This document shows positions 7,865 to 29,433 of a stretch of 64,000 nt of DNA, piece after piece. Source of the DNA: Candidatus Parcubacteria bacterium (GTDB lineage: Bacteria > Patescibacteriota > Patescibacteriia > Patescibacteriales > UBA12465); NCBI GenBank assembly GCA_023444045.1, contig JAEZRQ010000002.1, forward strand, positions 12,102 through 76,101, written 5' to 3'. The position numbers and the translations under genes are program-made. Each line of letters starts with the position of its first letter. Within the stretch, counting starts at the first letter, position 1. A model generated the notes under the pieces. That model made no database searches and had not been told where the DNA came from. It was given only the letters and a program-made list of their open reading frames with translations.

Positions 7865-8212
7865 ATGAAGAAACCATTAAAGATTTCCTTGTTATTTTTA
7901 GCAGGTATTGTAATAATCAGCCTAACTGTAGTCCTAATAAAAAACCAACCAAAACAAATTCTCTTTTATAGTAATTTCTGCGGGCATTGTTTGGAAGTAG
8001 AAAAATATATTAGTGAAAATAAGGTTAAAGACTATCTAGTTTTCAGAGAACTAGAGGTGTCTCAGAACCAGGTAAATTCCAGGCTGTTGTCCCAGAAGGC
8101 AGCGATCTGTAGAGTTGATAATAAAGAAATTGGGGTTCCCTTTTTCTTTGACGGCGAAAAATGCTTAATCGGGTCAGATGAGATTATTAATTATTTTGAA
8201 AGCAAAAAATAG
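7865..8212 (+). CDS. Membrane-anchored thioredoxin-fold protein with CGHC active site
   Basis: 115 aa with an N-terminal TM (ISLLFLAGIVIISLTVVLI). The FCGHCLEVE CxxC motif is of the PDI/DsbA type. Confidence 0.6.
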   Translation: MKKPLKISLLFLAGIVIISLTVVLIKNQPKQILFYSNFCGHCLEVEKYISENKVKDYLVFRELEVSQNQVNSRLLSQKAAICRVDNKEIGVPFFFDGEKCLIGSDEIINYFESKK

Positions 8213-20828: not shown

Positions 20829-20915
20829 CGGAGAGGCAGGGATTCGAACCCTGGGTCGACTTTCATCGACGACAGTTTTCAAGACTGTTCCATTAAACCG
20901 CTCTGGCACCTCTCC
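20829..20915 (-). tRNA. tRNA-Ser (anticodon UGA), class II, CCA not encoded
   Basis: Hand-folded: acceptor GGAGAGG/CCTCTCC, anticodon arm ACAGT-CTTGAAA-ACTGT, long variable arm GTCGA..TCGAC, T arm CAGGG-TTCGAAT-CCCTG, discriminator G. 87 nt. Confidence 0.9.
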
Positions 20916-21004
20916 ATTTCAAAATAAAGATAACATAAGATTAAAAGCAAATCAACCCTTAAAAACAAAAAGCCCCGAACAACTTTTTGTTGTCGGGGCT
21001 TTCT

Positions 21005-21433
21005 TTAAAATATTATTCTAAAGATGGAAAGATACACAACCTGGTGCCTATTAGAAAATTGCTTTTCTTCCAGATACAGAAAATCCTCTCTCCATTCATG
21101 TCCGTTGTTATAAAGGCAACGAACCACCTTTTTCCCTTTATTATTAAGGTAAGTGGTCCCTAAAAAGACCAAATAGACACCTTTAAGATGTTGCGGTATC
21201 CGGTGACCATTCCGCAAGAAAAATTTGATAGAGCCAGCACCCAACGGTATTCGCCACGGCCTTTTCTTCAAGTCTTTAATAAGATCAACGCCTCTGACAC
21301 TTACCCCTTTCTCCTGCTCCGCGGACAAAAAAGTAGAGATTTTACCAAATCTCACTTTTAAATCTTTCTTAATATCATTAACCACCTGCCAGCCCCTAAC
21401 GCCTGACTCTCCTAATAAAGAAACTTTGAACAT
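21005..21433 (-). CDS. Hypothetical protein (last gene of the RT-associated block)
   Basis: 142-aa ORF with a strong SD (AGGAGGTaatattATG), lying 50 nt downstream of the SdpI-like gene. No family recognised. Confidence 0.6.
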   Translation of the reverse strand: MFKVSLLGESGVRGWQVVNDIKKDLKVRFGKISTFLSAEQEKGVSVRGVDLIKDLKKRPWRIPLGAGSIKFFLRNGHRIPQHLKGVYLVFLGTTYLNNKGKKVVRCLYNNGHEWREDFLYLEEKQFSNRHQVVYLSIFRIIF

Positions 21434-21483
21434 AATATTACCTCCTATTTTTTAAGTTACCGGAGATAATTACAGCAAATAAA

Positions 21484-22158
21484 CTACCTTTTGTCAACTT
21501 CTTTCTTTTCTTGACTATAGAGCCAGTAAGAATAAACAAATAAAGTAAAAACAACAAATATTGCTCCACCCAGCAGAACAAAAATGGCTGTTTTTGAGTT
21601 AAGATAGGGAGTAAACACTAGTAAAATTCCCCAAATAACAAAAAGATATGAGCCTAGGTGGTGAGTTTTATCCCAAACCTTCTCTGAAGAAATAGTCCAA
21701 GAGGTTCTAATACCGACAAAGAAATTTCTTTTAATTTTTCTAAAATAAAATCCTAGAATTATCATCAACAGCCCAATAACTGTAGTGACAATAATCCCAA
21801 TATTAAGGTTATACCCCAGATTAACCAAGGTGGCCGCTGCAAAAATTATGAACATAACTGAAAGAATGAGATTGCGCATCACTAAGTAAGCTTTAGAAAA
21901 TTCCTGATATCTTTCACTCATTGGATCAAACTTTGGCATTAATGTTAAAAGTAAATAGATAAAGAAAATTAAGCCTGGAAAAAATAAAGAATGAAACAAG
22001 CGGCTACTCCAACCATCAGCTTCGCCACTAAAATTCCAGTGAGTAATTACCAAATCAGGTAATTGAGGGTAAGCCCAAATAGCAACTGCCAAACTTAAAA
22101 ACAATAAACCGGCAGGCCAAAGTTCTGTTTTTAGTGAATAGTTAATGGGATTTTTCAT
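21484..22158 (-). CDS. SdpI/YhfL-family membrane protein (DUF1648 + SdpI domains)
   Basis: 224 aa. ITHWNFSGEADGWSSR is a DUF1648-type motif after the first TM. A later FFVGIRTSWTISSEKVWDKTH is an SdpI-type motif. About 6 TM. Confidence 0.6.
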   Translation of the reverse strand: MKNPINYSLKTELWPAGLLFLSLAVAIWAYPQLPDLVITHWNFSGEADGWSSRLFHSLFFPGLIFFIYLLLTLMPKFDPMSERYQEFSKAYLVMRNLILSVMFIIFAAATLVNLGYNLNIGIIVTTVIGLLMIILGFYFRKIKRNFFVGIRTSWTISSEKVWDKTHHLGSYLFVIWGILLVFTPYLNSKTAIFVLLGGAIFVVFTLFVYSYWLYSQEKKEVDKR

Positions 22159-22159
22159 A

Positions 22160-23338
22160 TTACTTATTTAAATTATAATGAAGCTCAAAAGTTTGGTTAA
22201 AAGCGCTAACTAGAGAGCTAATATTTGAAACCATAACTGATTCGTTATTAGAGAAAAAACCGCTAGAGCTCCAATTATTAGTGCCAAAAGCAACAGTATC
22301 ATCCGTAATTAGTAAATGATGATGCAAGAAAGAATTAAATTTATCATCACCTTTATGTTGTCTAACAGCTTCATTTCTCTTAGCATCATCTATCAGTTCT
22401 AAATTAGTTAAACCTTGATATCTCTTTTGCTTAGACATAAAAGGCATAATAGAATCTTTAATCTTAAAATTAAAGTCATCAACAATTACCTTAACTGGAA
22501 TATCCTTAGCTTTTTGTACTAAGTTAACAGCGGTGTCTTTGTCGGTAAAATGCCAAATCATGGCTTTAACATTATTTTCCGCCTTATAAATTAAATTTAA
22601 CAATCGGTTTTTTAAACTATTATCTCCGGAACTCGGTAGAAACCAGACCTCTAAAAACCCTTCCGGATAATTAATTAAAGCGGCAAAAGAATTATAATTT
22701 TCACCCCTGACCGGTACCCTATCTAATTCTAAAAGTAGGCGGTCAAATTCTTCGCCAAAAACATTTACTAACTCTGGACGATCAGTTTCCATAATAAAGC
22801 TAGGGTCATACTGAGCCTGAATATAAGTAAAGTTAGAAGAACCAAAAAATAACTTTCCCGATTCTAGTCCACGATCAATAATCATAAACTTGTGATGCAT
22901 GTATCCGCTGGATCCAAAGGGAGAAAAGCTTATTTTTAAATTATCACTCTTTTGCTCAAAGAATTTCTCCATGCTAGTAACATACTTATTACTAAAAACA
23001 ATATTGACCTTAACCCCACGATTAACTGCTCGATAAATAGCTTCCTTAATCAAAGAATCGTCCATGGAATACATAGCAATTTCAACTGTTGAGCTGGCTG
23101 AGTCAATTGCTTTAGTAGCTAACTGTGAAAAATAGTCTGAGCCCACTTCATTATTAAAGTGAATCTCGCTCGAAAAAGGCTCAGAAATATTAATTACTTT
23201 CTCCGGGGCAAAATCTTCCACTCTTGGCGGTTCATAAAAGAAAGACACCTGCTTATAAAGAACTAGAGTGATAACAACACCTAAGACCAGGATGAATAAA
23301 AGCCCTAATTTATTTTTATATTTTTTAAGCCAGTTCAT
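22160..23338 (-). CDS. Membrane-anchored phospholipase D / HKD-superfamily protein (one canonical, one degenerate HKD)
   Basis: 392 aa with an N-terminal TM (LGLLFILVLGVVITLVLY). First motif HHKFMIIDRG...GSSNFT is canonical HxK(x)4D...GSxN. Second motif HHHLLITDD...GTNNW has the Lys replaced by His. Confidence 0.75.
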   Translation of the reverse strand: MNWLKKYKNKLGLLFILVLGVVITLVLYKQVSFFYEPPRVEDFAPEKVINISEPFSSEIHFNNEVGSDYFSQLATKAIDSASSTVEIAMYSMDDSLIKEAIYRAVNRGVKVNIVFSNKYVTSMEKFFEQKSDNLKISFSPFGSSGYMHHKFMIIDRGLESGKLFFGSSNFTYIQAQYDPSFIMETDRPELVNVFGEEFDRLLLELDRVPVRGENYNSFAALINYPEGFLEVWFLPSSGDNSLKNRLLNLIYKAENNVKAMIWHFTDKDTAVNLVQKAKDIPVKVIVDDFNFKIKDSIMPFMSKQKRYQGLTNLELIDDAKRNEAVRQHKGDDKFNSFLHHHLLITDDTVAFGTNNWSSSGFFSNNESVMVSNISSLVSAFNQTFELHYNLNK

Positions 23339-25022
23339 ATTGATGATGATAATTTAAATTATTTATTTTATTAATTGAAAAAACTATGATAATGGAATCA
23401 GTAAGCTCATTACTTAATAATTTTAGCATATTATCAATACTCTGATAACCTAAATCCAGCCACTGATTATCAATAATAATAATTTGAGGCCTTTTAAAAA
23501 GGCAGTGAAGAACATGTAAGGCGAAAGATGAGGAATTGTTGCCCCAAGCATATGAGGCAAGGCGATTAAAGTTATTCTCATTTTTAAGTGCTTCCCCTAA
23601 CTCAGGAAAGCGATTAGCAATACTTAAAACTTTTTCTATCTCTTCAAACCGAGTCTCTTCCCTGTCTTTACCAATAATCACTTCAATTAAACTTTTTTCT
23701 GATTTAAATTCTTTATCAAAAAAATATGTTTGGCTATCTTTAAGCTGATACTGTGTAAAATCTAATCGCTTACCATCTACTTTTACTTTAATCCCCTTAG
23801 AAGTATAAGCGGAGACTCCAGCAAACAACTTCGCTAAAACCGTCTTACCGGAAAAGTTTGGGCCCACTAAGAGATAGCGACCGCCAACTTTAAAATCAAA
23901 AGAAACATCTTTATAATATCGCCCTGTTTTAAACAACTTTGCTTTAGAAATGTAAAAAGATAGACTATTTTTAATTTTAAGAGGATATTTTTGCGACGCA
24001 TCTTTAAATAATTTAATATCAGTTAAAGATAGACCTAATTTTCCCGGAAAAAGATAGAGCCCGATTCGTAACGACTCCATAACAGTCCTTGAGAGATAGA
24101 TAAGTAAAAATAAATATAAGAACTTAGAGCTTGAGTCTATTAAATTAATTTGCGAAATTATTTGATCATAAAAAATATTAGCTAAAATAGAAATCATCAA
24201 AAACACTAAAAATACTATCTTAAAGCTCATTTTCATCCACAGATCACGCCTGATTCTAAAAATTGAGTCAAAGCCAACTAAATTATTAAATTTTTTCAAT
24301 AAACTTTTTTCCAACTTAAAAATTTTATTAAAATATTTTTCTGATAAATTTAAATCTATATGTCGTATTATTTGAGAATAAAAAGTTACCTCCTGAGAAA
24401 CATATTTTTTCACAATTAAATAAGAACTCAGAGCAATTACAGAAGAGATAAGTACTAAAAATATTAAAATAAGCCAAACATTTAAATCTGCCAAATAAGC
24501 AACGAGGAGAGCGCAACCTAAATACACCACCCACCTAAAAAAACCAAAGAAAGAATTAGATAACCCCATTGAAACCAGGGGCAAATGATAAGATATCTTG
24601 GCAATTAAATCAGCTTGTTTTGTAAAACTCATTTTTTCCCTTTTTTGCCGCAAATAATTTTTAAAAATCCTGTTTCTTAGATAATTAATAAAGAAGACAA
24701 CAAAGGTTTTCTCCTGTTTGATTGAAAAAAATGAAGTAAAAATAAAAATAATAACCAAGCCAAAAAACGGTAGCCAGAAAGAAAAATTAGACCAATAAAA
24801 ATTACTGGAAATTAGATGATTGCGACTAACAAATATTAAAAAAGTCTCAGCCAAGCCCTGAAAAAATAACAAGAATATCGCCGACCAAAAAAGGGACTGA
24901 TTCTTCCTTAGAAAAAAAGATAAACTCCTATAAAAAGGCCGCTTGCCGATAATGGGTCTAACAACAAGCCTCTCTTGTCTAACTCTTTTTATTAAATCAA
25001 TCTGCTCGTTAACGTTTCTCAT
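23325..25022 (-). CDS. ABC-exporter-like protein with degenerate nucleotide-binding domain
   Basis: 565 aa. About 6 N-terminal TM helices in an ABC_membrane-like layout. Walker A GPNFSGKT is present. The signature position reads GNNSS instead of LSGGQ, Walker B is IIIIDNQ (no catalytic Glu), and there is no H-loop His. 14-nt overlaps with both neighbours. Confidence 0.7.
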   Translation of the reverse strand: MRNVNEQIDLIKRVRQERLVVRPIIGKRPFYRSLSFFLRKNQSLFWSAIFLLFFQGLAETFLIFVSRNHLISSNFYWSNFSFWLPFFGLVIIFIFTSFFSIKQEKTFVVFFINYLRNRIFKNYLRQKREKMSFTKQADLIAKISYHLPLVSMGLSNSFFGFFRWVVYLGCALLVAYLADLNVWLILIFLVLISSVIALSSYLIVKKYVSQEVTFYSQIIRHIDLNLSEKYFNKIFKLEKSLLKKFNNLVGFDSIFRIRRDLWMKMSFKIVFLVFLMISILANIFYDQIISQINLIDSSSKFLYLFLLIYLSRTVMESLRIGLYLFPGKLGLSLTDIKLFKDASQKYPLKIKNSLSFYISKAKLFKTGRYYKDVSFDFKVGGRYLLVGPNFSGKTVLAKLFAGVSAYTSKGIKVKVDGKRLDFTQYQLKDSQTYFFDKEFKSEKSLIEVIIGKDREETRFEEIEKVLSIANRFPELGEALKNENNFNRLASYAWGNNSSSFALHVLHCLFKRPQIIIIDNQWLDLGYQSIDNMLKLLSNELTDSIIIVFSINKINNLNYHHQYELA

Positions 25023-26229
25023 AATGAAATTTTTGATAAATTTTATACAAAGAATTTATTCTAAAAGGTGCAATCAGCTCTTTTAATTTTTTGCGATTAC
25101 GCGGCGAATATTTTTCATAAAAAAACTTAGTTAGTATCTTAAAAAAGGATTCGGAAATTTTTTTGATTTGTTCTGAGTTATTAATTTGAGGCTTACTTTT
25201 AACCATTAAATAAAAAATATTATTAAAATTAGTCTTTTCTCGGCTCATTGTTTTTTTCAAAATACTTATTTTAGCTGTCAGAGAATAGTGCTTATAAGCT
25301 AAAATCCTCTTCCACTCCGTTTCTATTCTTTTGACAAAATTTGGCTCTAGACTAATTACCCCGTTATTAAAGTGATAACCTAAATATGAAAATCCTTCAC
25401 TAGCTAATCCTAAAAACTTCTTACTCTGATTAATTTCTAGCCCTAAATCATTTAAATCACTAAATATTTGATCCGAGAGATTAATTAATTTTTTACTGTC
25501 TCTATCTAAGAGAGCAATGTCATCGCCCACACGCACATAATAATCAACTTGATCTTGATATTTAAAGTCAAACTCTGTGAGATATAGATTAACAAATAGG
25601 GCAATCAGCGGCACCCCCTGAATTAGTCCTTTTGGAGGCAGTTCTAGTTCACTACCACGATAAACTTTGTTAAAAATAAAAAGAGCTAAGATATTTAATA
25701 TCCTTTCATCATCAAATAAACTTTTTAGTTTCAAAAACATTAACTCGCGGCTAATCCGGTCAGAGTAATTTTTAAGGTCAATTATCAGGGCACCGTAATT
25801 ATTAAAATGGCGGCGATATTCTTGGCAGAAAAATTTAGCCGCTAGGTGCGGCGGCTTACCGGGACGATATGAAAATAAGTGTTTAGAATATCTTTTTTCA
25901 AATTCTGGCAAAACAACTCTATAAATAGCTTGTGCCTTAATCCTTTCTTTAATATTGTAAACAAAAATTTCCCGAAATTCTCCGGGTTTATTATTTTTTG
26001 GTATTTTAACAGAGAGGGCTGGTTCTAATTCTTTAAAACTACTAAGTTCGCTGCGAACTTGAGAGATTATTTCTTGCGACCTTAATTCCAAATCCTTCAA
26101 AAAAACGTTATCAAGGCCATGATATTTAAAATTCCGATGATCGGCTGAAAATTCTTTAATAATTTCTAAATAAGCCTCTTCTAAATTAGCTAGGCTAAGT
26201 ATTTGGTCAAACATAGTTTTAATAATCAT
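25009..26229 (-). CDS. Stand-alone reverse transcriptase, group-II-intron-like motifs, no maturase/endonuclease or intron RNA
   Basis: RT motifs are readable: IPKNNKPGEFREI (1), FSYRPGKPPHLA (2a), IIDLKNYSDRI (3), GLIQGVPLIALFVNLYL (4), YYVRVGDDIALL (5, VGDD in place of YADD), GLEINQSKKFL (6), FSYLGYHF (7). Start is uncertain: ATG 26229 (MIIKTMFDQ) or 26214 (MFDQILSLANLEEAY). The track's TTG start at 26307 would translate a GC hairpin. Confidence 0.85.
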   Translation of the reverse strand: MIIKTMFDQILSLANLEEAYLEIIKEFSADHRNFKYHGLDNVFLKDLELRSQEIISQVRSELSSFKELEPALSVKIPKNNKPGEFREIFVYNIKERIKAQAIYRVVLPEFEKRYSKHLFSYRPGKPPHLAAKFFCQEYRRHFNNYGALIIDLKNYSDRISRELMFLKLKSLFDDERILNILALFIFNKVYRGSELELPPKGLIQGVPLIALFVNLYLTEFDFKYQDQVDYYVRVGDDIALLDRDSKKLINLSDQIFSDLNDLGLEINQSKKFLGLASEGFSYLGYHFNNGVISLEPNFVKRIETEWKRILAYKHYSLTAKISILKKTMSREKTNFNNIFYLMVKSKPQINNSEQIKKISESFFKILTKFFYEKYSPRNRKKLKELIAPFRINSLYKIYQKFHYEKR

Positions 26230-26320
26230 TCCTAAGATATCTAGTAAATAGATATGATTTAATTCCACTGAGGCCGCTCCCCCTCCCGGGGGTAGTAGTG
26301 TCGACAACTACTTACTGATA

Positions 26321-26400
26321 ATAAACCGATATTAACGATATTTATCATATTTTCAGAAAGTAGTTAGTAATATCCCAAAAATGGGTGTTAGGAATGATTT
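26321..26400. repeat. Repeat module R1 (proximal to RT)
   Basis: ataaaCcgatattaacgat...taatatcccaaaaatgggtgtt... aligns with R2 at roughly three quarters identity, with one 1-nt indel by eye. The shared blocks are CGATATTAACGAT and TAATATCCCAAAAATGGGT. Confidence 0.8.
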
Positions 26401-26509
26401 TAAAAAAGACTAAACCTTCAAGATGCTTAAAAAATTAAGCATAATTTAAATCAATGAGAACCCGCAGAAAATAAATACCCATGAAAATAAGCTCAACTAT
26501 TTTTTAAAA

Positions 26510-26588
26510 ATAAATCGATATTAACGATGTTATTATATTTTTAATAAATAGTTGTTAATATCCCAAAAATGGGTTTTGAAGGTTTTTG
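26510..26588. repeat. Repeat module R2 (distal)
   Basis: ataaaTcgatattaacgat...taatatcccaaaaatgggtttt... lies 189 bp from R1 in the same orientation. Confidence 0.8.
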
Positions 26589-26607
26589 GCAATATAATTG
26601 CTTAAAT

Positions 26608-26616
26608 ATTATAACA
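26608..26616 (-). promoter_or_regulatory. Extended -10 (TGTTATAAT) reading toward the RT
   Basis: The plus strand attataaca at 26608-26616 is TGTTATAAT on the minus strand. The same 9-mer is used upstream of the thrS leader, the 7865 operon and recG. Confidence 0.45.
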
Positions 26617-26752
26617 TAAATAATAAAAAAAGGCTTGTTAATAATAAAAGTTGACATATCTTGATTTTTTAACCAGGCAATGTTAGAGTTTACTTACTAG
26701 ATTTAGTATTAACTCTCTTAAAAAAATCAGCTTCGGCTGGAAAGGAGGTCTC

Positions 26753-27154
26753 ATGAAAGCACTTTTAAAATCTCTTAAAAGAATCGCCTACTGGGTGATG
26801 AAAGACATGTTTATGATCTTAGTCGCCGCTACCTTTGGCGGTGGTTCACTTTATTTGTGGAACAACATTTACCTCTCCCTTTTCTTAGCCTTTGTAGCTG
26901 GGTATCTCTATATCGGCTATCAAGTTTCATTTCATGGTAAAGGCAGGGGCGAGCAGATATTGTTCTTTTGCAATATCATTGCTATTGGGGTAATGGCGAT
27001 TTCCGGAATATTAGGATTTGTCTTCGGACAAATTGCCATTGGGATAATAGCCGTTTTCATCCTTATATTCCTGCTATTACTGCAAGGGTTATATGAATTC
27101 GGAAAAGCAATTGAGGCGCGTGAATCATACCTAAGAAGCATGGAAGGTGATTAG
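26753..27154 (+). CDS. Small polytopic membrane protein
   Basis: 133 aa with a strong SD (AAAGGAGGTctcATG) and 3-4 TM segments. No family recognised. Confidence 0.6.
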   Translation: MKALLKSLKRIAYWVMKDMFMILVAATFGGGSLYLWNNIYLSLFLAFVAGYLYIGYQVSFHGKGRGEQILFFCNIIAIGVMAISGILGFVFGQIAIGIIAVFILIFLLLLQGLYEFGKAIEARESYLRSMEGD

Positions 27155-27207: not shown

Positions 27208-29433
27208 TTAATCGCGATATAGCTTCATCAGTAATGAATTAGCAACTACACTGACTGAAGAAAATGACATGGCCAGGGCCGCGATCATAGGGTCAAGCAT
27301 TATACCCCAGATTGGATATAATAATCCGGCTGCAATCGGGATACCTAAAGAGTTATAAACAAAAGCCCAAAATAAATTCTGTCTTATTTTTCTTAAAGTA
27401 TATTTAGAGATACTAATCGCGGAAATCACATCCCTTAAATCATTTTTTACTAAAATTATCTCACCCGCCTCCATAGCAACATCGGTTCCAGAGGCCATGG
27501 CAATGCCTAGGTCCGCTTGAGCTAGAGCTGGAGCATCATTAATGCCATCGCCAACCATCGCTACCACTAAACCAGCATCCTGAAGTTCTTTAATTTTTTT
27601 TGCCTTATCAGCTGGGTAGACATTAGCTAAGACATTTTCAATTCCTAATTTATTAGCAATTGCCGCAGCCACCTTTTCATTGTCGCCACTTATTAAATAA
27701 ATCTTGCGCCCTCTTTTTTTTAAGTTTGAGATAGCTTCTAAGCTGCTTTCTTTAATATCATCAATCAAACCGATAAGACCGGCAATTTGCTGACCATGAA
27801 CGACATATAATGGGGTTTTTCCAGCCTCTGCTAAAGAATTAAAACTATCTTCAACAGCTAATGGAATTTCTATCCCTTCTTCTAATAACAATTTTTTATT
27901 ACCTAAAAGTAGTTTAGTTTGGTGCTCATGGCAGAAAGCCTTAAGCCCACGGCCTTCTTTTTCTTCAAGACTAGTTACTTCAATAGTCTTAATTCCCTGA
28001 TTATTTATGTAAGAAAAAACCGCTTCTGATAAGGGGTGTTTGGAGTGCCTAGCTAAAGAACCAGAAATTTTTAGAATTTTTTCCTGAGGAAAATTAAAAC
28101 TAATAATCTCTACAACCTCTGGAGTGCCTTTAGTTAGGGTGCCGGTTTTATCAAAGACAAAAGTGTTAACCTTATTGGCCGCCTCTAAAGCGGCCAAACT
28201 TTTAATTAAAATCCCCCTTTTGGCCGCGAGACCAGCGCCCATCATGACAGCGGTTGGAGTTGCCAGTCCTAAAGAACAAGGACAAGCAATAATTAAAACC
28301 GAAACAAAAGCTGTTAAAGCAAATGAAAACTCAAAACCAAGGATTAACCAAATAAGAAGGGACAAAAAAGCAATAGTAATTACAGCGGGGGTAAAATAAT
28401 AAGCTACTTTATCTACTAGTAATTGAATCGGTGATTTGGAAGCAATGGCGTTTTCCATTACTTTAATAATCTGAGCCAACATTGTCTCTTCGCCGATGCT
28501 AGAAACCTTAAATCTTAAAACACTAGTCTTATTAATCGTGCCACCAATTAATAAGTCACCGTTTTTCTTAAGAACTGGAATACTCTCCCCGGTGATAGCG
28601 CTTTCATCAATCGTTGACTGTCCAAAGATTATTTGTCCATCAAGTGGCACTTTATCACCAGGCTTTACAATTAAAATATCCCCCGGAATAACTTCAGAAA
28701 TCTGAACTTTTATTTCCTGCTCATTGCGCCAAACAATAGCAGTATTTGGCTGTAGGCCGACTAGTTTTTTAATTGCTTCACCGGCTTTACCTTTAGTTTT
28801 TTCTTCTAGATATTTTCCTAAAATAATAAAAACCAAAATAAACCCAGCACTCTCAAAATAGACATGAAAATCATCATATTGGCCAAAAAATAAATTAGAT
28901 GAAAATAAAATAACAATTGAGTAGATAAAAGCAGCCGCAGTCCCAACAGCAATTAAACTATCCATGTTTGGCCTAAGTTTTAATAACTTAGAAAAACCAG
29001 AGTGATAAATTGATCTGTTAACAAAGATAATTAAAGAAGTGAGAATTAATTGGCCTAAATAGTTGGCAGCAGGAGAAATATTTATCATCGGTAAACCAAA
29101 CATCTGCCCCATAGAAAGATAGAACAAGGGTAAACCAAAAACTAGTGACAACACAAAAAGACGGCGGTATTTTTTAACTAAATCGGGCGTCTTTCTGGTG
29201 TCTTGATTAGCGAGTCTAGCACTATAGCCAGTTTGTTTAATTAAAGAAATTATTTCAGGGGTGCTAATGTCTATTTCTTTAAAAGAAATAAGGGCCTTAT
29301 TAGTAGCTAAACTGATTTGTGCTTCAGCAATACGAGTGTCTTTATCTAAGACTCTTTGGATATTAGCGACACAAGAAGCACAAGTCATGCCATCAATATT
29401 TAATTCTATTTTTTTCATATATTTATTCAACAA
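27208..29433 (-). CDS. copA: Copper-translocating P1B-type ATPase
   Basis: 741 aa. N-terminal HMA GMTCASCV, TM CPC motif (IIACPCSLGLATP), DKTGTLT, GDGINDAP. Confidence 0.95.
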   Translation of the reverse strand: MLNKYMKKIELNIDGMTCASCVANIQRVLDKDTRIAEAQISLATNKALISFKEIDISTPEIISLIKQTGYSARLANQDTRKTPDLVKKYRRLFVLSLVFGLPLFYLSMGQMFGLPMINISPAANYLGQLILTSLIIFVNRSIYHSGFSKLLKLRPNMDSLIAVGTAAAFIYSIVILFSSNLFFGQYDDFHVYFESAGFILVFIILGKYLEEKTKGKAGEAIKKLVGLQPNTAIVWRNEQEIKVQISEVIPGDILIVKPGDKVPLDGQIIFGQSTIDESAITGESIPVLKKNGDLLIGGTINKTSVLRFKVSSIGEETMLAQIIKVMENAIASKSPIQLLVDKVAYYFTPAVITIAFLSLLIWLILGFEFSFALTAFVSVLIIACPCSLGLATPTAVMMGAGLAAKRGILIKSLAALEAANKVNTFVFDKTGTLTKGTPEVVEIISFNFPQEKILKISGSLARHSKHPLSEAVFSYINNQGIKTIEVTSLEEKEGRGLKAFCHEHQTKLLLGNKKLLLEEGIEIPLAVEDSFNSLAEAGKTPLYVVHGQQIAGLIGLIDDIKESSLEAISNLKKRGRKIYLISGDNEKVAAAIANKLGIENVLANVYPADKAKKIKELQDAGLVVAMVGDGINDAPALAQADLGIAMASGTDVAMEAGEIILVKNDLRDVISAISISKYTLRKIRQNLFWAFVYNSLGIPIAAGLLYPIWGIMLDPMIAALAMSFSSVSVVANSLLMKLYRD

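What the first reader, a model, noticed from the sequence alone, without database searches (positions are those of the whole stretch)
21005..26307. Stand-alone RT translationally coupled to a degenerate ABC-exporter-like protein, a membrane PLD/HKD protein and an SdpI-like protein: candidate undescribed RT-associated system
Five co-directional minus-strand genes form one tight block. They are: RT (25009-26229); a 565-aa ABC-exporter-like protein (23325-25022); a 392-aa TM-anchored HKD/PLD protein (22160-23338); a 224-aa SdpI/DUF1648 membrane protein (21484-22158, 1-nt gap); and a 142-aa unknown with a strong SD (21005-21433). The RT/ABC and ABC/PLD junctions are both 14-nt overlaps of the same form (ATGAGAAACGTTAA and ATGAACTGGCTTAA), which argues for translational coupling rather than chance adjacency. 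The RT has all seven RT motifs in a group-II-intron-like flavour (NLEEAYLEI, IPK..G..R, SYRPGK, QGVPL..LFVNLYL, GLEINQSKK, YLGYHF). Three features set it apart from an intron RT. It has an unusual VGDD catalytic box. It has no maturase or endonuclease domain. Its 3' end is overlapped by the next gene, so there is no room for intron domains. Known RT defence architectures that I can recall do not include this RT + pseudo-ABC exporter + extracytoplasmic-looking PLD + SdpI-like combination. Those are retrons with ATPase/TM/PRTase/nuclease effectors, DRT1-9, AbiA/K/P2, DGRs and CRISPR-RT. The block sits beside a tRNA-Ser with tRNA-fragment scars, which is a typical accessory hotspot, and has a long structured leader (see next finding).
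Basis: partly seen in the sequence, partly recalled or inferred. Interest (0 to 1): 0.88.

Follow-up and report, generated by a model that had tools for sequence, protein, structure and literature searches.

The report
RT, pseudoknotted RNA, pseudo-ABC, PLD cassette

Summary
The ORFs and both 14-nt overlaps are exactly as described.

The real unit is not five genes. It is three proteins plus one RNA.
- Synteny: in 54 reference-genome loci, RT→ABC-like→PLD is kept in 51. The other three are cut by contig ends. SdpI, the 142-aa ORF and all flanking genes are kept in 0–3.
- Exclusivity: the three protein families are closed sets and co-evolve (Spearman 0.85–0.87).
- RNA: a ~180–280-nt RNA lies directly upstream of the RT. 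It has five helices and a pseudoknot with very strong covariation, and no Rfam match. The window holds two tandem copies.
- RT: it is closest to group II intron RTs, but no ribozyme is detectable. It has [VIL]GDD in place of YADD.
- ABC-like protein: it has a full type IV exporter fold. It lacks the catalytic Glu, the signature motif and the H-loop in every member.
- PLD: a single N-terminal anchor, a predicted outward-facing domain, a canonical first HKD motif and an invariant HxH variant of the second.

I found no defence-island, phage or tRNA-scar signal.

Best reading: a domesticated RT–RNA module coupled to a membrane effector pair, analogous to retrons and DRTs. The function is inferred, not shown. 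High interest.

The parts
26406..26592 (-). Distal copy of the RT-associated structured RNA. It has its own closing helix (AAACCUUCAA / UUGAAGGUUU). No ORF follows it directly.
   Evidence: Covariance model R1 scores 109.9 bits, E 3e-21. Direct repeat with 188-189-nt period and inverted repeat I17. 95.1 % identical to the L055 orthologue, against 89.4 % for the adjacent spacer.
26220..26404 (-). Proximal copy of the structured RNA.
- P1 closing helix: about 26398-26388 with 26235-26225.
- P2: CCC 26385-26383 with GGG 26376-26374.
- Pseudoknot: AUAUUA 26373-26368 with loop UAAUAU 26334-26329.
- Variable P4: CCCCC-GGGA-GGGGG, 26292-26279.
- P5 hairpin: 26255-26237.
- The 3' strand of P1 carries the purine-rich AGGA 14 nt before the RT AUG.
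   Evidence: R1 scores 138.8 bits, E 1e-27. Covariation: 92 % of cells paired against 36-44 % in slid controls, and 39/42 pairs with double changes. Pseudoknot: 98 % paired, 6/6 pairs covary. Sequence read.
26613..26641 (-). Promoter-like site (TTAACA-17-TATGTT, overlapping a TGTTATAAT) just upstream of the distal RNA copy.
   Evidence: Consensus scan. TATAAT-like boxes occupy the same position upstream of P1 in several related loci, read by eye in alignments A2 and A3. Consensus match only.
25009..26214 (-). [quoted passage not shown] The catalytic Asp residues are conserved. It has [VIL]GDD instead of YADD, and Ser where GsI-IIC has the second Phe of DLEKFFD.
   Evidence: RVT_1, 5e-13. TIGR04416 group_II_RT_mat scores 106 bits, far below its cut-off of 300. 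Nearest solved structures: GsI-IIC RT at 123 bits and Cas6-RT-Cas1 at 102 bits. Family alignment A1. HMM alignment.
23325..25022 (-). Pseudo-ABC half-transporter, 565 aa. It has a six-helix type IV exporter transmembrane domain and an NBD. Walker A is mostly kept. Walker B is hhhhD-N, with Asn replacing the catalytic Glu. There is no LSGGQ signature and no H-loop His.
   Evidence: ABC_tran at 35 bits. Motif counts over 48 family members. AF2 model pLDDT 82.5. Foldseek top hits MsbA, TM287/288, PglK and TAP, with TM about 0.7. Closed family of 70 clusters.
22160..23338 (-). Membrane-anchored two-lobed PLD/HKD enzyme, 392 aa. It has one N-terminal TM helix and the catalytic domain is predicted to be extracytoplasmic. 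HKD1 is canonical. HKD2 is an invariant HxH(x)4D...GTNN variant.
   Evidence: PLDc_2 with two stretches. Motif counts 48/48. Positive-inside rule: median K+R is 5 on the N-flank against 2 on the C-flank. AF2 pLDDT 92.4. Foldseek hits: bacterial PLD, PLD3/PLD4, F13 and PssA. Closed family of 81 clusters.
21484..22158 (-). SdpI/DUF1648 membrane protein. It is probably co-transcribed here (1-nt gap) but is NOT a conserved part of the cassette.
   Evidence: Pfam. 0/54 loci. Present only in the near-identical relative L055.
21005..21433 (-). 142-aa ORF of unknown function with a strong SD. It is NOT a conserved part of the cassette.
   Evidence: No hit in Pfam, PADLOC or NCBIfam. 0/54 loci.
20961..21000 (-). 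Terminator-like hairpin (AGCCCCGACAAC-AAAAA-GUUGUUCGGGGCU followed by a U-run) that ends the local transcription unit, just upstream of tRNA-Ser.
   Evidence: Read directly from the sequence. The automatic scan missed it because of a one-base bulge.

Best explanation
SHOWN
The window carries one member of a discrete four-component module that is confined, as far as sampled, to Patescibacteria/CPR. Its parts are:
- a structured, pseudoknotted RNA at the 5' end of the operon;
- a free-standing group-II-intron-like RT;
- a type IV ABC-exporter-fold protein whose NBD has lost the residues needed for ATP hydrolysis;
- a PLD-superfamily enzyme on a single N-terminal membrane anchor.
The three genes overlap, co-evolve and are not found apart.

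INFERRED
1. The RNA is the RT's cognate partner. The RT binds its own leader, much as group II intron RTs bind intron domain IVa at their own ribosome-binding site. The RT uses the RNA as a scaffold and probably as a template or primer to make a cDNA or RNP product.
2. The RT-RNA module is the sensing or signal-generating half. The pseudo-ABC dimer together with the PLD is the membrane-embedded output half. The NBD acts as a non-hydrolysing ligand-gated switch, as degenerate NBDs do in CFTR/SUR-type proteins.
3. The module is therefore an accessory 'conflict' system, in the same logic as retrons and DRT systems: RT + ncRNA + effector. It would act in anti-phage or anti-MGE defence, or in interaction with the host cell of these episymbionts.

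SdpI and the 142-aa ORF are bystanders.
For: MODULE
- RT->ABC->PLD has the same order and strand in 51/54 loci. The other three are truncated by contig ends. Flanking genes are shared in only 0-3/54.
- Junction overlaps are conserved.
- Spearman correlations of pairwise identities are 0.87, 0.85 and 0.85.
- The families are closed: ABC 70 clusters all >=295 bits; PLD 81 clusters >=202 bits, then a drop to 65 bits. The RT family stands out in the profile search, with full-length matches >=250 bits and RT-domain-only matches from about 160 bits down.

RNA
- 31/41 pairs are compensatory in 14 sequences.
- The model finds the RNA directly upstream of the RT in loci not used to build it, and essentially nowhere else in 910 kb.
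- 92 % of cells are paired against 36-44 % in slid controls, and 39/42 pairs show double changes.
- The pseudoknot is 98 % paired with 6/6 pairs covarying. The model does not encode it, so the alignment was not fitted to it.
- The sense strand scores 139 bits against 29 for the antisense, and G-U pairs are frequent.
- Distant clades are recovered with filters off or with model R2, always in the <=300 nt before the RT.

TRANS-ACTING RNA OR RNP RATHER THAN A PURE LEADER
- Intact distal copies with compensated closing helices and no ORF behind them occur in the window/L055, L001 and L033/L054.
- In L003 the RNA has its own terminator-like hairpin and lies 2 kb from the RT.

ACCESSORY OR CONFLICT CHARACTER
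- The module is sporadic, sits in variable genomic contexts and occurs in 1-3 divergent copies per genome, with 41-63 % RT identity between paralogues.
- It diverges fast: mean identity is 35-44 %.
- The RT catalytic residues are invariant.
- The NBD is dead in every member yet mostly keeps its P-loop.
Against: - No functional data of any kind exist.
- There is no enrichment of known defence genes next to the cassette. The nearest neighbours are sigma factors, pilins, RecG/DEAD helicases, NUDIX and rubrerythrin.
- The PLD catalytic domain is predicted to face outside the cell. That is awkward for a classical abortive-infection effector and separates it topologically from the RT.
- The P1 3' strand carries a purine-rich box 12-14 nt before the AUG. 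A purely cis-regulatory role for the RNA therefore cannot be excluded.
- There is no direct sign of a template region, a cDNA or a priming site.
- In the most divergent clade the RNA is detected only marginally (E 0.002-0.19), or only by eye.
Confidence: 0.45

Rival explanations
1. Envelope nucleic-acid handling machine, not defence. The surface-anchored HKD enzyme is a NucT/PLD3-like single-strand nuclease. The ABC-fold protein is a passive or ligand-gated conduit. The RT works on nucleic acid crossing the membrane. This could be uptake of foreign RNA or ssDNA followed by complementary-strand synthesis, or export of an RT product. It would serve the scavenging, competence-dependent lifestyle of CPR bacteria.
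For: - The PLD halves match nuclease NucT models (NCBIfam, 1e-14) and Zucchini/MitoPLD in the PDB.
- The fold is as close to the PLD3/PLD4 ssDNA exonucleases as to anything else.
- The catalytic domain is predicted to be extracytoplasmic.
- There is no defence-island signal.
- Type IV pilin-like genes recur upstream of the cassette in 13 loci.
- The exporter fold is complete.
Against: - I know of no precedent for nucleic-acid passage through a type IV ABC fold (from my own knowledge).
- The cassette is rare and sporadic rather than a core CPR trait.
- This reading gives the conserved RNA no obvious role.
- Pilin genes are abundant in CPR genomes generally, so the linkage may be chance.
Confidence: 0.2
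2. The upstream RNA is only a cis-acting regulatory leader: a riboswitch, a thermosensor, or an RT autoregulatory operator like group II intron DIVa. It hides the ribosome-binding region in P1, and the RT's real template lies elsewhere. This rival concerns the RNA's role only and is compatible with any of the system-level functions.
For: - The P1 3' strand contains GGGGA/GAGGA/AGGA 12-14 nt before the AUG in nearly all loci.
- The RNA is always immediately 5' of the RT and on the same strand.
- Tandem aptamers are known for riboswitches (from my own knowledge).
- The architecture, a multi-helix junction plus a pseudoknot, resembles an aptamer.
Against: - The RNA is found with no other gene family in 910 kb, unlike metabolite riboswitches.
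- Distal tandem copies keep a compensated P1 with no start codon behind them.
- In L003 the RNA is detached from the RT and has its own terminator-like hairpin.
- The spacing of 12-14 nt is long for an SD.
- The P4 hairpin is hypervariable, which is unusual for an aptamer.
Confidence: 0.2
3. Lipid acquisition or remodelling module. The PLD is a phospholipase or transphosphatidylase and the MsbA-like protein flips or extracts lipids taken from the host cell. The RT would be a regulatory or moonlighting partner.
For: - Foldseek places the PLD equally near bacterial PLD (7e0m), PssA and eukaryotic PLD1/2.
- The best structural matches of the ABC protein include the lipid flippases MsbA and PglK.
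- CPR bacteria lack lipid synthesis (from my own knowledge).
Against: - It gives no reason why an RT with an invariant polymerase active site and a dedicated structured RNA should be obligatorily coupled.
- A hydrolysis-dead NBD cannot power flipping.
- The sporadic distribution does not fit an essential lipid-supply function.
Confidence: 0.08
4. A mobile retroelement: a degenerate group II intron, or a new retroelement that carries ABC and PLD as cargo.
For: - The RT is closest to mobile group II intron RTs.
- Some genomes carry several copies.
- A structured RNA lies next to the RT.
Against: - No ribozyme domains are detected, even at E<=5.
- There is no endonuclease or DNA-binding domain.
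- The next gene overlaps the 3' end of the RT ORF.
- Paralogues within one genome share only 41-63 % RT identity, so there has been no recent transposition.
- No flanking repeats or tRNA scars are present.
- Only one doubtful instance occurs among 2.9 M viral contigs.
Confidence: 0.05

Closest known systems
Group II intron-encoded RTs (e.g. GsI-IIC RT, LtrA) and their binding to intron domain IVa
   Same: - These are the best sequence matches for the RT domain: 123 bits to GsI-IIC and 106 bits to TIGR04416.
- The RT sits directly behind a structured RNA that includes the region just upstream of its own start codon. This recalls LtrA binding DIVa (from my own knowledge).
   Different: - There are no ribozyme domains.
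- There is no D/En domain.
- The ORF is not embedded in an intron but overlaps a downstream gene.
- It has [VIL]GDD instead of YADD, and Ser at the second Phe of the FF motif.
- The TIGR04416 score is far below the family cut-off (106 against 300).
G2L (group-II-like) free-standing RTs, e.g. G2L4 (PMC8632793; PMC12337344)
   Same: A domesticated group-II-type RT without intron RNA. An altered YxDD box has a precedent: G2L4 has YIDD.
   Different: - Similarity to G2L4 itself is weak (41 bits, C-terminal half only).
- G2L4 acts alone in double-strand-break repair and has no dedicated RNA or membrane partners.
- The review of G2L gene neighbourhoods mentions queuosine-pathway and defence contexts, not ABC or PLD.
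Retrons and ncRNA-dependent DRT systems (DRT2/UG2, DRT9/UG28, DRT3, DRT10/UG17)
   Same: The operon logic is the same: a structured ncRNA immediately upstream of an RT, plus effector gene(s). A long-range closing helix bounds the RNA, like the retron a1/a2 pairing.
   Different: - The RT lineage differs: 31 bits to the Ec86 RT, 46 to DRT2 and 65 to the 9ioa-type RT, against 123 to a group II RT.
- The RNA matches no Rfam family.
- The effectors (pseudo-ABC exporter plus an outward-facing PLD) are unlike any listed in PADLOC v2.
- There is no defence-island context.
- No msDNA or cDNA evidence exists.
UG26 (Class 2 UG/Abi RT; PMC9226505)
   Same: It is the second-best PADLOC RT model (107 bits).
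   Different: - The match covers only the RT core.
- It scores below a generic RT model (123 bits) and on a par with group II models.
- Published UG26 neighbours are Vsr-like endonucleases, not ABC or PLD.
Type IV ABC exporters with degenerate nucleotide sites (TM287/288, TmrAB; CFTR/SUR as non-transport examples)
   Same: A full six-helix domain-swapped exporter fold plus an NBD, with TM about 0.7 to MsbA, TM287/288, PglK and TAP.
   Different: In this family the chain's only NBD lacks the catalytic Glu, the LSGGQ signature and the H-loop in all members. A homodimer would therefore have no competent ATPase site.
Membrane-anchored HKD nucleases (PLD3/PLD4, Zucchini/MitoPLD, H. pylori NucT)
   Same: - An N-terminal single-pass anchor followed by an HKD catalytic domain.
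- Sequence hits to Zucchini and NucT.
- A two-lobed fold like PLD3/4.
   Different: - The second motif is HxH rather than HxK in all members.
- The substrate is unknown, because lipid-acting PLDs are equally close by fold.

Membership tests
Mobile group II intron | RT of the group II type (RT0-7 with a thumb/X region) | tested here: met
   GsI-IIC RT at 123 bits and 7uim at 115 bits, with the alignment covering residues about 2-309. TIGR04416 scores 106 bits but lies below its cut-off of 300.
Mobile group II intron | Ribozyme domains I-VI flanking the ORF (catalytic domain V) | tested here: not met
   No Intron_gpII or group-II-D1D4 hit at gathering score across the window, or at E<=5 in 20900-26800. 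The upstream RNA is only about 185 nt long and has a different architecture.
Mobile group II intron | C-terminal DNA-binding/endonuclease domain (in mobile lineages) and an ORF lying inside domain IV | tested here: not met
   Only RVT_1 is found. The ORF ends inside the start of the next gene, with a 14-nt overlap.
G2L (group-II-like free-standing RT) | Closest relatives are group II intron RTs and intron RNA is absent | tested here: met
G2L (group-II-like free-standing RT) | Placement inside the published G2L clade (G2L4, G2L5 or Toro 2019 clusters) in a reference RT tree | not tested
   No reference RT dataset was available here. Similarity to solved G2L4 is only 41 bits.
Retron | Retron-type RT | tested here: not met
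   The Ec86 RT scores 30-31 bits, against 123 bits for a group II RT.
Retron | Adjacent ncRNA bounded by inverted repeats (a1/a2) upstream of the RT | tested here: inconclusive
   An upstream RNA with a 12-bp closing helix exists. It has no Rfam retron match, and its five-helix-plus-pseudoknot layout differs from msr-msd.
Retron | Branched msDNA product | not testable with these tools
   This needs cDNA or msDNA detection.
UG/Abi DRT systems (UG26, UG17 etc.) | RT belongs to a named UG/Abi group | tested here: inconclusive
   PADLOC scores: RT_UG26 107 bits, UG17 81 bits, generic RT 123 bits, RT of Cas1_IIIb 96 bits. NCBIfam Drt2 scores 36 bits (cut-off 390) and Drt3a 32 bits (cut-off 200), both far below their cut-offs. 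No group-specific threshold is available for UG26.
UG/Abi DRT systems (UG26, UG17 etc.) | Known accessory genes of that group (Vsr-like for UG26, SLATT for UG17) | tested here: not met
   The neighbours are the pseudo-ABC and PLD proteins in 51/54 loci.
ABC transporter (type IV exporter) | Six-helix domain-swapped transmembrane domain plus NBD fold | tested here: met
   AF2 pLDDT 82.5. Foldseek hits MsbA, PglK, TM287/288 and TAP with TM 0.67-0.73.
ABC transporter (type IV exporter) | Catalytic NBD motifs: Walker B Glu, LSGGQ signature, H-loop His | tested here: not met
   The residue after the Walker B Asp is Asn in 44/48 members and never Glu. There is no LSGGQ and no H-loop His. Walker A Lys is kept in 43/48.
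PLD superfamily (two-HKD enzymes) | Two HxK(x)4D(x)6G(S/T)xN motifs in a bilobed fold | tested here: inconclusive
   The first motif is canonical in 48/48 members. The second is HxH(x)4D...GTNN in 48/48, with Lys replaced by His. The bilobed fold is confirmed, with pLDDT 92.4 and TM 0.6-0.67 to PLD, PLD3/4, F13 and PssA.
Any Rfam RNA family | Covariance-model match | tested here: not met
   No hit on 26200-26800 at gathering score or at E<=5.
   SdpI is present in 0/54 loci and the 142-aa ORF in 0/54. Both occur only in the ~90 % identical relative L055.

The most novel reading that the evidence does not exclude
The cassette is not a defence system at all. It is a new kind of RT machine in which a ribonucleoprotein (RT plus pseudoknotted RNA) is physically docked on a non-hydrolysing ABC-fold conduit. 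The RT's product, or its substrate, crosses the membrane to or from a surface-anchored HKD nuclease. That would be reverse transcription coupled to transmembrane nucleic-acid traffic in episymbiotic bacteria. A further twist my evidence does not exclude: the altered active site ([VIL]GDD, and Ser at the putative sugar-gate position) may let the enzyme use ribonucleotides.
Probability: 0.15. Interest if true: 0.95.

Novelty: new variant of a known kind. Interest (0 to 1): 0.8.

Why it matters
1. It adds a fourth, well-supported example class to the 'RT + dedicated structured RNA + partner proteins' theme. This one is built on a group-II-intron-type RT rather than a retron or UG/Abi RT. That bears directly on how intron RTs were domesticated.
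2. It defines a new pseudoknotted RNA motif with strong covariation that is absent from Rfam.
3. Its partners are unlike any RT partners I could find described: a full ABC exporter with a universally dead ATPase site, and an apparently outward-facing HKD enzyme. This poses a sharp topological puzzle, because a cytoplasmic polymerase is coupled to an extracellular catalytic domain.
4. It is confined to Patescibacteria, whose biology and conflict systems are poorly known.
5. The compact RT has an unusual active site ([VIL]GDD, Ser at the FF position). It may have useful or unexpected polymerase properties.

Tried and rejected
- Metagenome scan for the RNA core pattern TCAAAACCC-N(3-12)-GGGATATTA. 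Only 2 of the 80 listed loci passed the covariance model. One was cut off by the stored flank. The other was a weak orphan (31 bits) with no RT nearby, probably chance. The scan said nothing about exclusivity.
- Viral contigs. There was one true family member. It sits at a contig end, behind two giant ORFs with no Pfam match, which is not convincingly viral. I rejected a phage-borne origin.
- Foldseek of the PLD model. It could not separate nuclease from lipid enzyme.
- Automatic alignment and folding of the most divergent clade's leaders. It failed (3 pairs), although equivalent hairpins and the pseudoknot can be seen by eye. The broader model R2 gives hits that are correct in position but marginal in score.
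- Defence-island test on the 142 nearest-neighbour ORFs. It returned only generic ATPase and helicase matches.
- tRNA-scar search. Negative.
- Compositional anomaly. None.
- Possible RT-partner fusion proteins among the intermediate hits of the exhaustive search. They turned out to be tandem RT-RT proteins with YADD and maturase domains, a different family.
- The idea that J4/5 (GUUGGAU...) competes with the P1 3' strand as a switch. I looked at it but did not resolve it.

Full report
OBSERVATION
The five minus-strand ORFs exist at the stated coordinates.
- RT/ABC overlap by 14 nt (25009-25022) and ABC/PLD by 14 nt (23325-23338).
- PLD and SdpI are 1 nt apart. The 142-aa ORF follows after 50 nt, behind an AGGAGG box.
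- Pfam gives RVT_1, a weak ABC_tran (35 bits), two PLDc_2 stretches and DUF1648+SdpI. It gives nothing for the last ORF.
- G+C is flat at about 33 % across the region.
- The family alignment shows that the RT most likely starts at ATG 26214 (MFDQIL...). That gives 401 aa, the modal family length.

WHAT BELONGS TOGETHER
The RT has 107 homologue clusters of about 400 aa. The sources that name an organism call nearly all of them Patescibacteria, Falkowbacteria or Magasanikbacteria. A scan of one genome per species returned 54 loci.
- tblastn with every window protein shows RT->ABC-like->PLD in the same order and strand in 51 of 54 loci. The other three are truncated by contig ends.
- SdpI and the 142-aa ORF occur in 0/54 loci. 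Flanking housekeeping genes occur in 0-3/54.
- The overlapping junctions are conserved across the family.
- All-against-all clustering of neighbouring ORFs found no further universal partner. A ~200-aa TM-anchored helical protein follows the PLD in one sub-clade of 11 loci.
- The only locus sharing SdpI and the 142-aa ORF is a ~90 % identical relative. It also shares the P-type ATPase next door, so this is ordinary short-range synteny.
- Searches with the ABC-like and PLD proteins return closed families: 70 clusters all >=295 bits, and 81 clusters >=202 bits followed by a drop to 65 bits. Contigs of the same lengths (e.g. 911224, 823079, 568144 and 233437 bp) recur in the RT, ABC and PLD hit lists.
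- A profile search of 1.84 billion representatives shows a discrete RT family. About 45-50 representatives have full-length coverage at >=250 bits. RT-domain-only matches begin at about 160 bits.
- Pairwise identities of the three proteins are tightly correlated, with Spearman 0.85-0.87.

THE FOURTH COMPONENT: A STRUCTURED RNA
Almost every locus keeps 250-350 nt of non-coding DNA before the RT. These leaders share nucleotide blocks at fixed offsets, although the RT proteins are only ~55 % identical.
- RNAalifold on 14 sequences predicts 41 pairs, of which 31 have compensatory double changes.
- A covariance model built from the closest clade finds the element directly upstream of the RT in 38 loci at E<=1e-3, most of which were not used to build it. 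No other sense-strand hit reaches E<0.1 in 910 kb.
- L003 is the one exception in position: its RNA lies 2 kb upstream of the RT.
- With filters off, or with the broader model R2, five more loci pass E<0.01. In the most divergent clade the best hit is nearly always in the <=300 nt before the RT on the correct strand, but scores are marginal.
- On 38 sequences, 92 % of cells pair against 36-44 % when partners are slid. 39 of 42 pairs show double changes. The covariation score is 0.74 against <=0.13.
- The alignment is fitted to the model, which inflates these numbers somewhat.
- A pseudoknot that the model cannot encode is just as well supported. It joins AUAUUA (3' of P2) to the apical loop UAAUAU. 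It is 98 % paired against 19-50 %, and all six pairs covary, for example AUGCCG/CGGCAU, GCAUUA/UAAUGC and GUGUUA/UAACAC.
- The sense strand scores 139 bits against 29 for the antisense, and G-U pairs are common. The RNA is therefore read in the RT direction.
- Rfam 15 has no match, even at E<=5.
- Architecture: a 12-bp closing helix P1; a P2 hairpin; the pseudoknot; a long P3 arm capped by the conserved loop; a hypervariable G+C-rich P4 (12 to >100 nt); a conserved single strand (GUUGGAUUUAAU...); and a P5 hairpin.

The window carries two tandem copies, at 26406-26592 and 26220-26404. Their closing helices differ by compensatory changes.
- Both copies are kept in the closest relative, at 95 % and 92 % identity against 89 % for the neighbouring spacer.
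- Tandem copies recur in L001 and in L033/L054.
- In L003 the RNA is intact (130 bits). It is followed by a terminator-like hairpin and separated from the RT by duplicated pilin-like genes.

THE PROTEINS
RT:
- Its nearest solved relatives are group II intron RTs (GsI-IIC at 123 bits) and Cas6-RT-Cas1 (102 bits).
- The 9ioa-type RT, DRT2, G2L4 and retron Ec86 are far weaker, at 65, 46, 41 and 31 bits.
- In PADLOC a generic RT model (123 bits) beats UG26 (107 bits). NCBIfam's intron RT/maturase model scores 106 bits against a cut-off of 300.
- The catalytic Asp residues are invariant.
- YADD is [VIL]GDD throughout. GsI-IIC's DLEKFFD aligns with DLxNYSD, which puts Ser at the second Phe.

ABC-like protein:
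- AF2 (pLDDT 82.5) and Foldseek show a complete type IV exporter half-transporter: MsbA, PglK, TM287/288 and TAP at TM about 0.7.
- Over 48 members the Walker A Lys is kept in 43 and the Walker B Asp in 48.
- The catalytic Glu is Asn in 44 members and never Glu. There is no LSGGQ and no H-loop His.

PLD:
- The model has pLDDT 92.4 and a bilobed HKD fold.
- HKD1 is canonical in 48/48 members. HKD2 is HxH(x)4D...GTNN in 48/48.
- All members have a single N-terminal TM helix. Median K+R is 5 on the N-flank against 2 on the C-flank, so the positive-inside rule puts the catalytic domain outside. This is an inference.
- Sequence hits favour nucleases: NucT, Zucchini and DrmC. By fold, lipid enzymes are equally close.

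CONTEXT
- The two nearest ORFs on each side in ~40 loci are housekeeping genes: sigma factors, pilins, RecG/DEAD helicases, NUDIX and rubrerythrin. Their PADLOC hits are generic.
- tRNA adjacency is not general, and no tRNA-Ser fragments flank the block.
- Only one doubtful instance occurs among viral contigs.
- Some genomes carry two or three cassettes, but these are old paralogues with 41-63 % RT identity. This argues against recent retrotransposition.

INTERPRETATION
Shown: a discrete, co-evolving module of RNA + RT + pseudo-ABC + PLD.

Inferred: the RNA is the RT's cognate partner, acting as a binding scaffold and probably as a template or primer. The membrane pair is the output of the system, with the dead NBD acting as a ligand-gated switch.

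The module's sporadic distribution, variable context, paralogue multiplicity and fast divergence make an accessory conflict function the best guess. The logic is the same as in retrons and DRTs. That could mean defence, or interaction with the host cell.

Three things weigh against this reading: the lack of any defence-island signal, the predicted outward orientation of the PLD, and the absence of any cDNA evidence.

The rivals are:
- a nucleic-acid trafficking machine at the envelope;
- a purely cis-regulatory leader;
- a lipid-handling pair with a moonlighting RT;
- a mobile retroelement, which I consider the least likely.

COMPARISON WITH WHAT IS KNOWN
The RT meets the operational definition of a G2L RT: a group-II-type RT without an intron (PMC8632793). 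It is not close to G2L4.

The published UG/Abi and G2L neighbourhood surveys that I could read mention no ABC or PLD partner. Full-text searches for the combination returned nothing relevant. PADLOC v2 has no matching system, and its models, PDC candidates included, give only weak hits for the partners. I could not run DefenseFinder or place the RT in a reference tree.

VERDICT
The five-gene unit is wrong but the core idea is right. The leader is a new structured RNA that belongs to the system.

I rate it a new variant of the RT + ncRNA + effector kind, with high interest.

Noticed in passing
window 26212-26307: Three candidate RT starts exist: TTG 26307, ATG 26229 and ATG 26214. Only 26214 (MFDQIL...) fits the family alignment and the modal length of 401 aa. 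The two upstream starts lie inside the structured RNA.
   Followed up: yes
window 25009-26214 (RT residues about 151-157 and 233-237 in the 406-aa numbering): Besides [VIL]GDD replacing YADD, the family has DLxNYSD where GsI-IIC RT has DLEKFFD. Ser therefore sits at the position of the second Phe, which I recall is the sugar steric gate. This may relax dNTP/NTP discrimination. Two family members also carry precomputed Pfam hits to RNA-polymerase families (PF00680 RdRP_1 in P0099; PF04196 in P0075).
   Followed up: partly
L003 7823-10016: The RNA is intact but lies about 2 kb upstream of the RT. It is followed by a terminator-like hairpin (8006-8035) and two extra copies of a type IV pilin-like gene. 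This could be a real rearrangement or a MAG assembly artefact across pilin repeats.
   Followed up: partly
L030-L035, L040, L043, L044, L054 (about +4.1 to +4.3 kb from the RT start); in L041 a homologue lies upstream of the RT: In one sub-clade a co-directional ~200-aa protein directly follows the PLD. It has an N-terminal TM helix and repeated 'DY..W' helical segments. It may be a lineage-specific fourth protein.
   Followed up: partly
L036, L039, L045-L053: PLD proteins of the most divergent clade are about 480-495 aa, so they carry a C-terminal extension. Their upstream RNA is strongly diverged. It keeps the pseudoknot logic with different sequences, for example GUUGCUC/GAGCAAC and GUUAUCA/UGAUAAC.
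   Followed up: partly
window 26406-26592; L001 9525-9703; L033 927-1187; L054 9396-9653; L055 3508-3693: Tandem duplication of the RNA recurs in at least three separate lineages. The extra copy keeps a compensated closing helix.
   Followed up: partly
L001-L054 record titles: Many MAG records that hold the cassette are titled 'uncultured Gammaproteobacteria'. A few are titled Flavobacteriaceae or Sphaerochaetaceae. The homologues that carry informative names are Patescibacteria, so these titles are probably placeholder or mis-binned labels.
   Followed up: no
P0300, P0302, P0315 (exhaustive RT search): Among the nearest out-group hits are ~830-860-aa proteins made of two tandem RT domains. 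They have canonical YADD and group II maturase (GIIM) matches, and form a different, unexamined family.
   Followed up: partly
L123 7287-7407 (-): A weak orphan hit of the RNA model (31 bits) on a TARA ocean scaffold, with no RT in the 7 kb downstream. It is probably chance, because the locus was pre-selected by a pattern taken from the model's core.
   Followed up: partly
window 27208-29433 (-) and 26753-27154 (+): Next to the cassette lie a heavy-metal P-type ATPase (HMA + E1-E2_ATPase in the orthologue) and a divergently oriented 133-aa multi-TM protein. Both are shared only with the closest relative.
   Followed up: no
L056 19-7719; L044 93-6368; L054 7-9339: Giant ORFs of 1100-2100 aa lie upstream of several cassettes. 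I scanned only the two in L056 against Pfam, and they had no match. I believe such ORFs are typical CPR surface proteins. This context probably explains why one contig was classed as viral.
   Followed up: no
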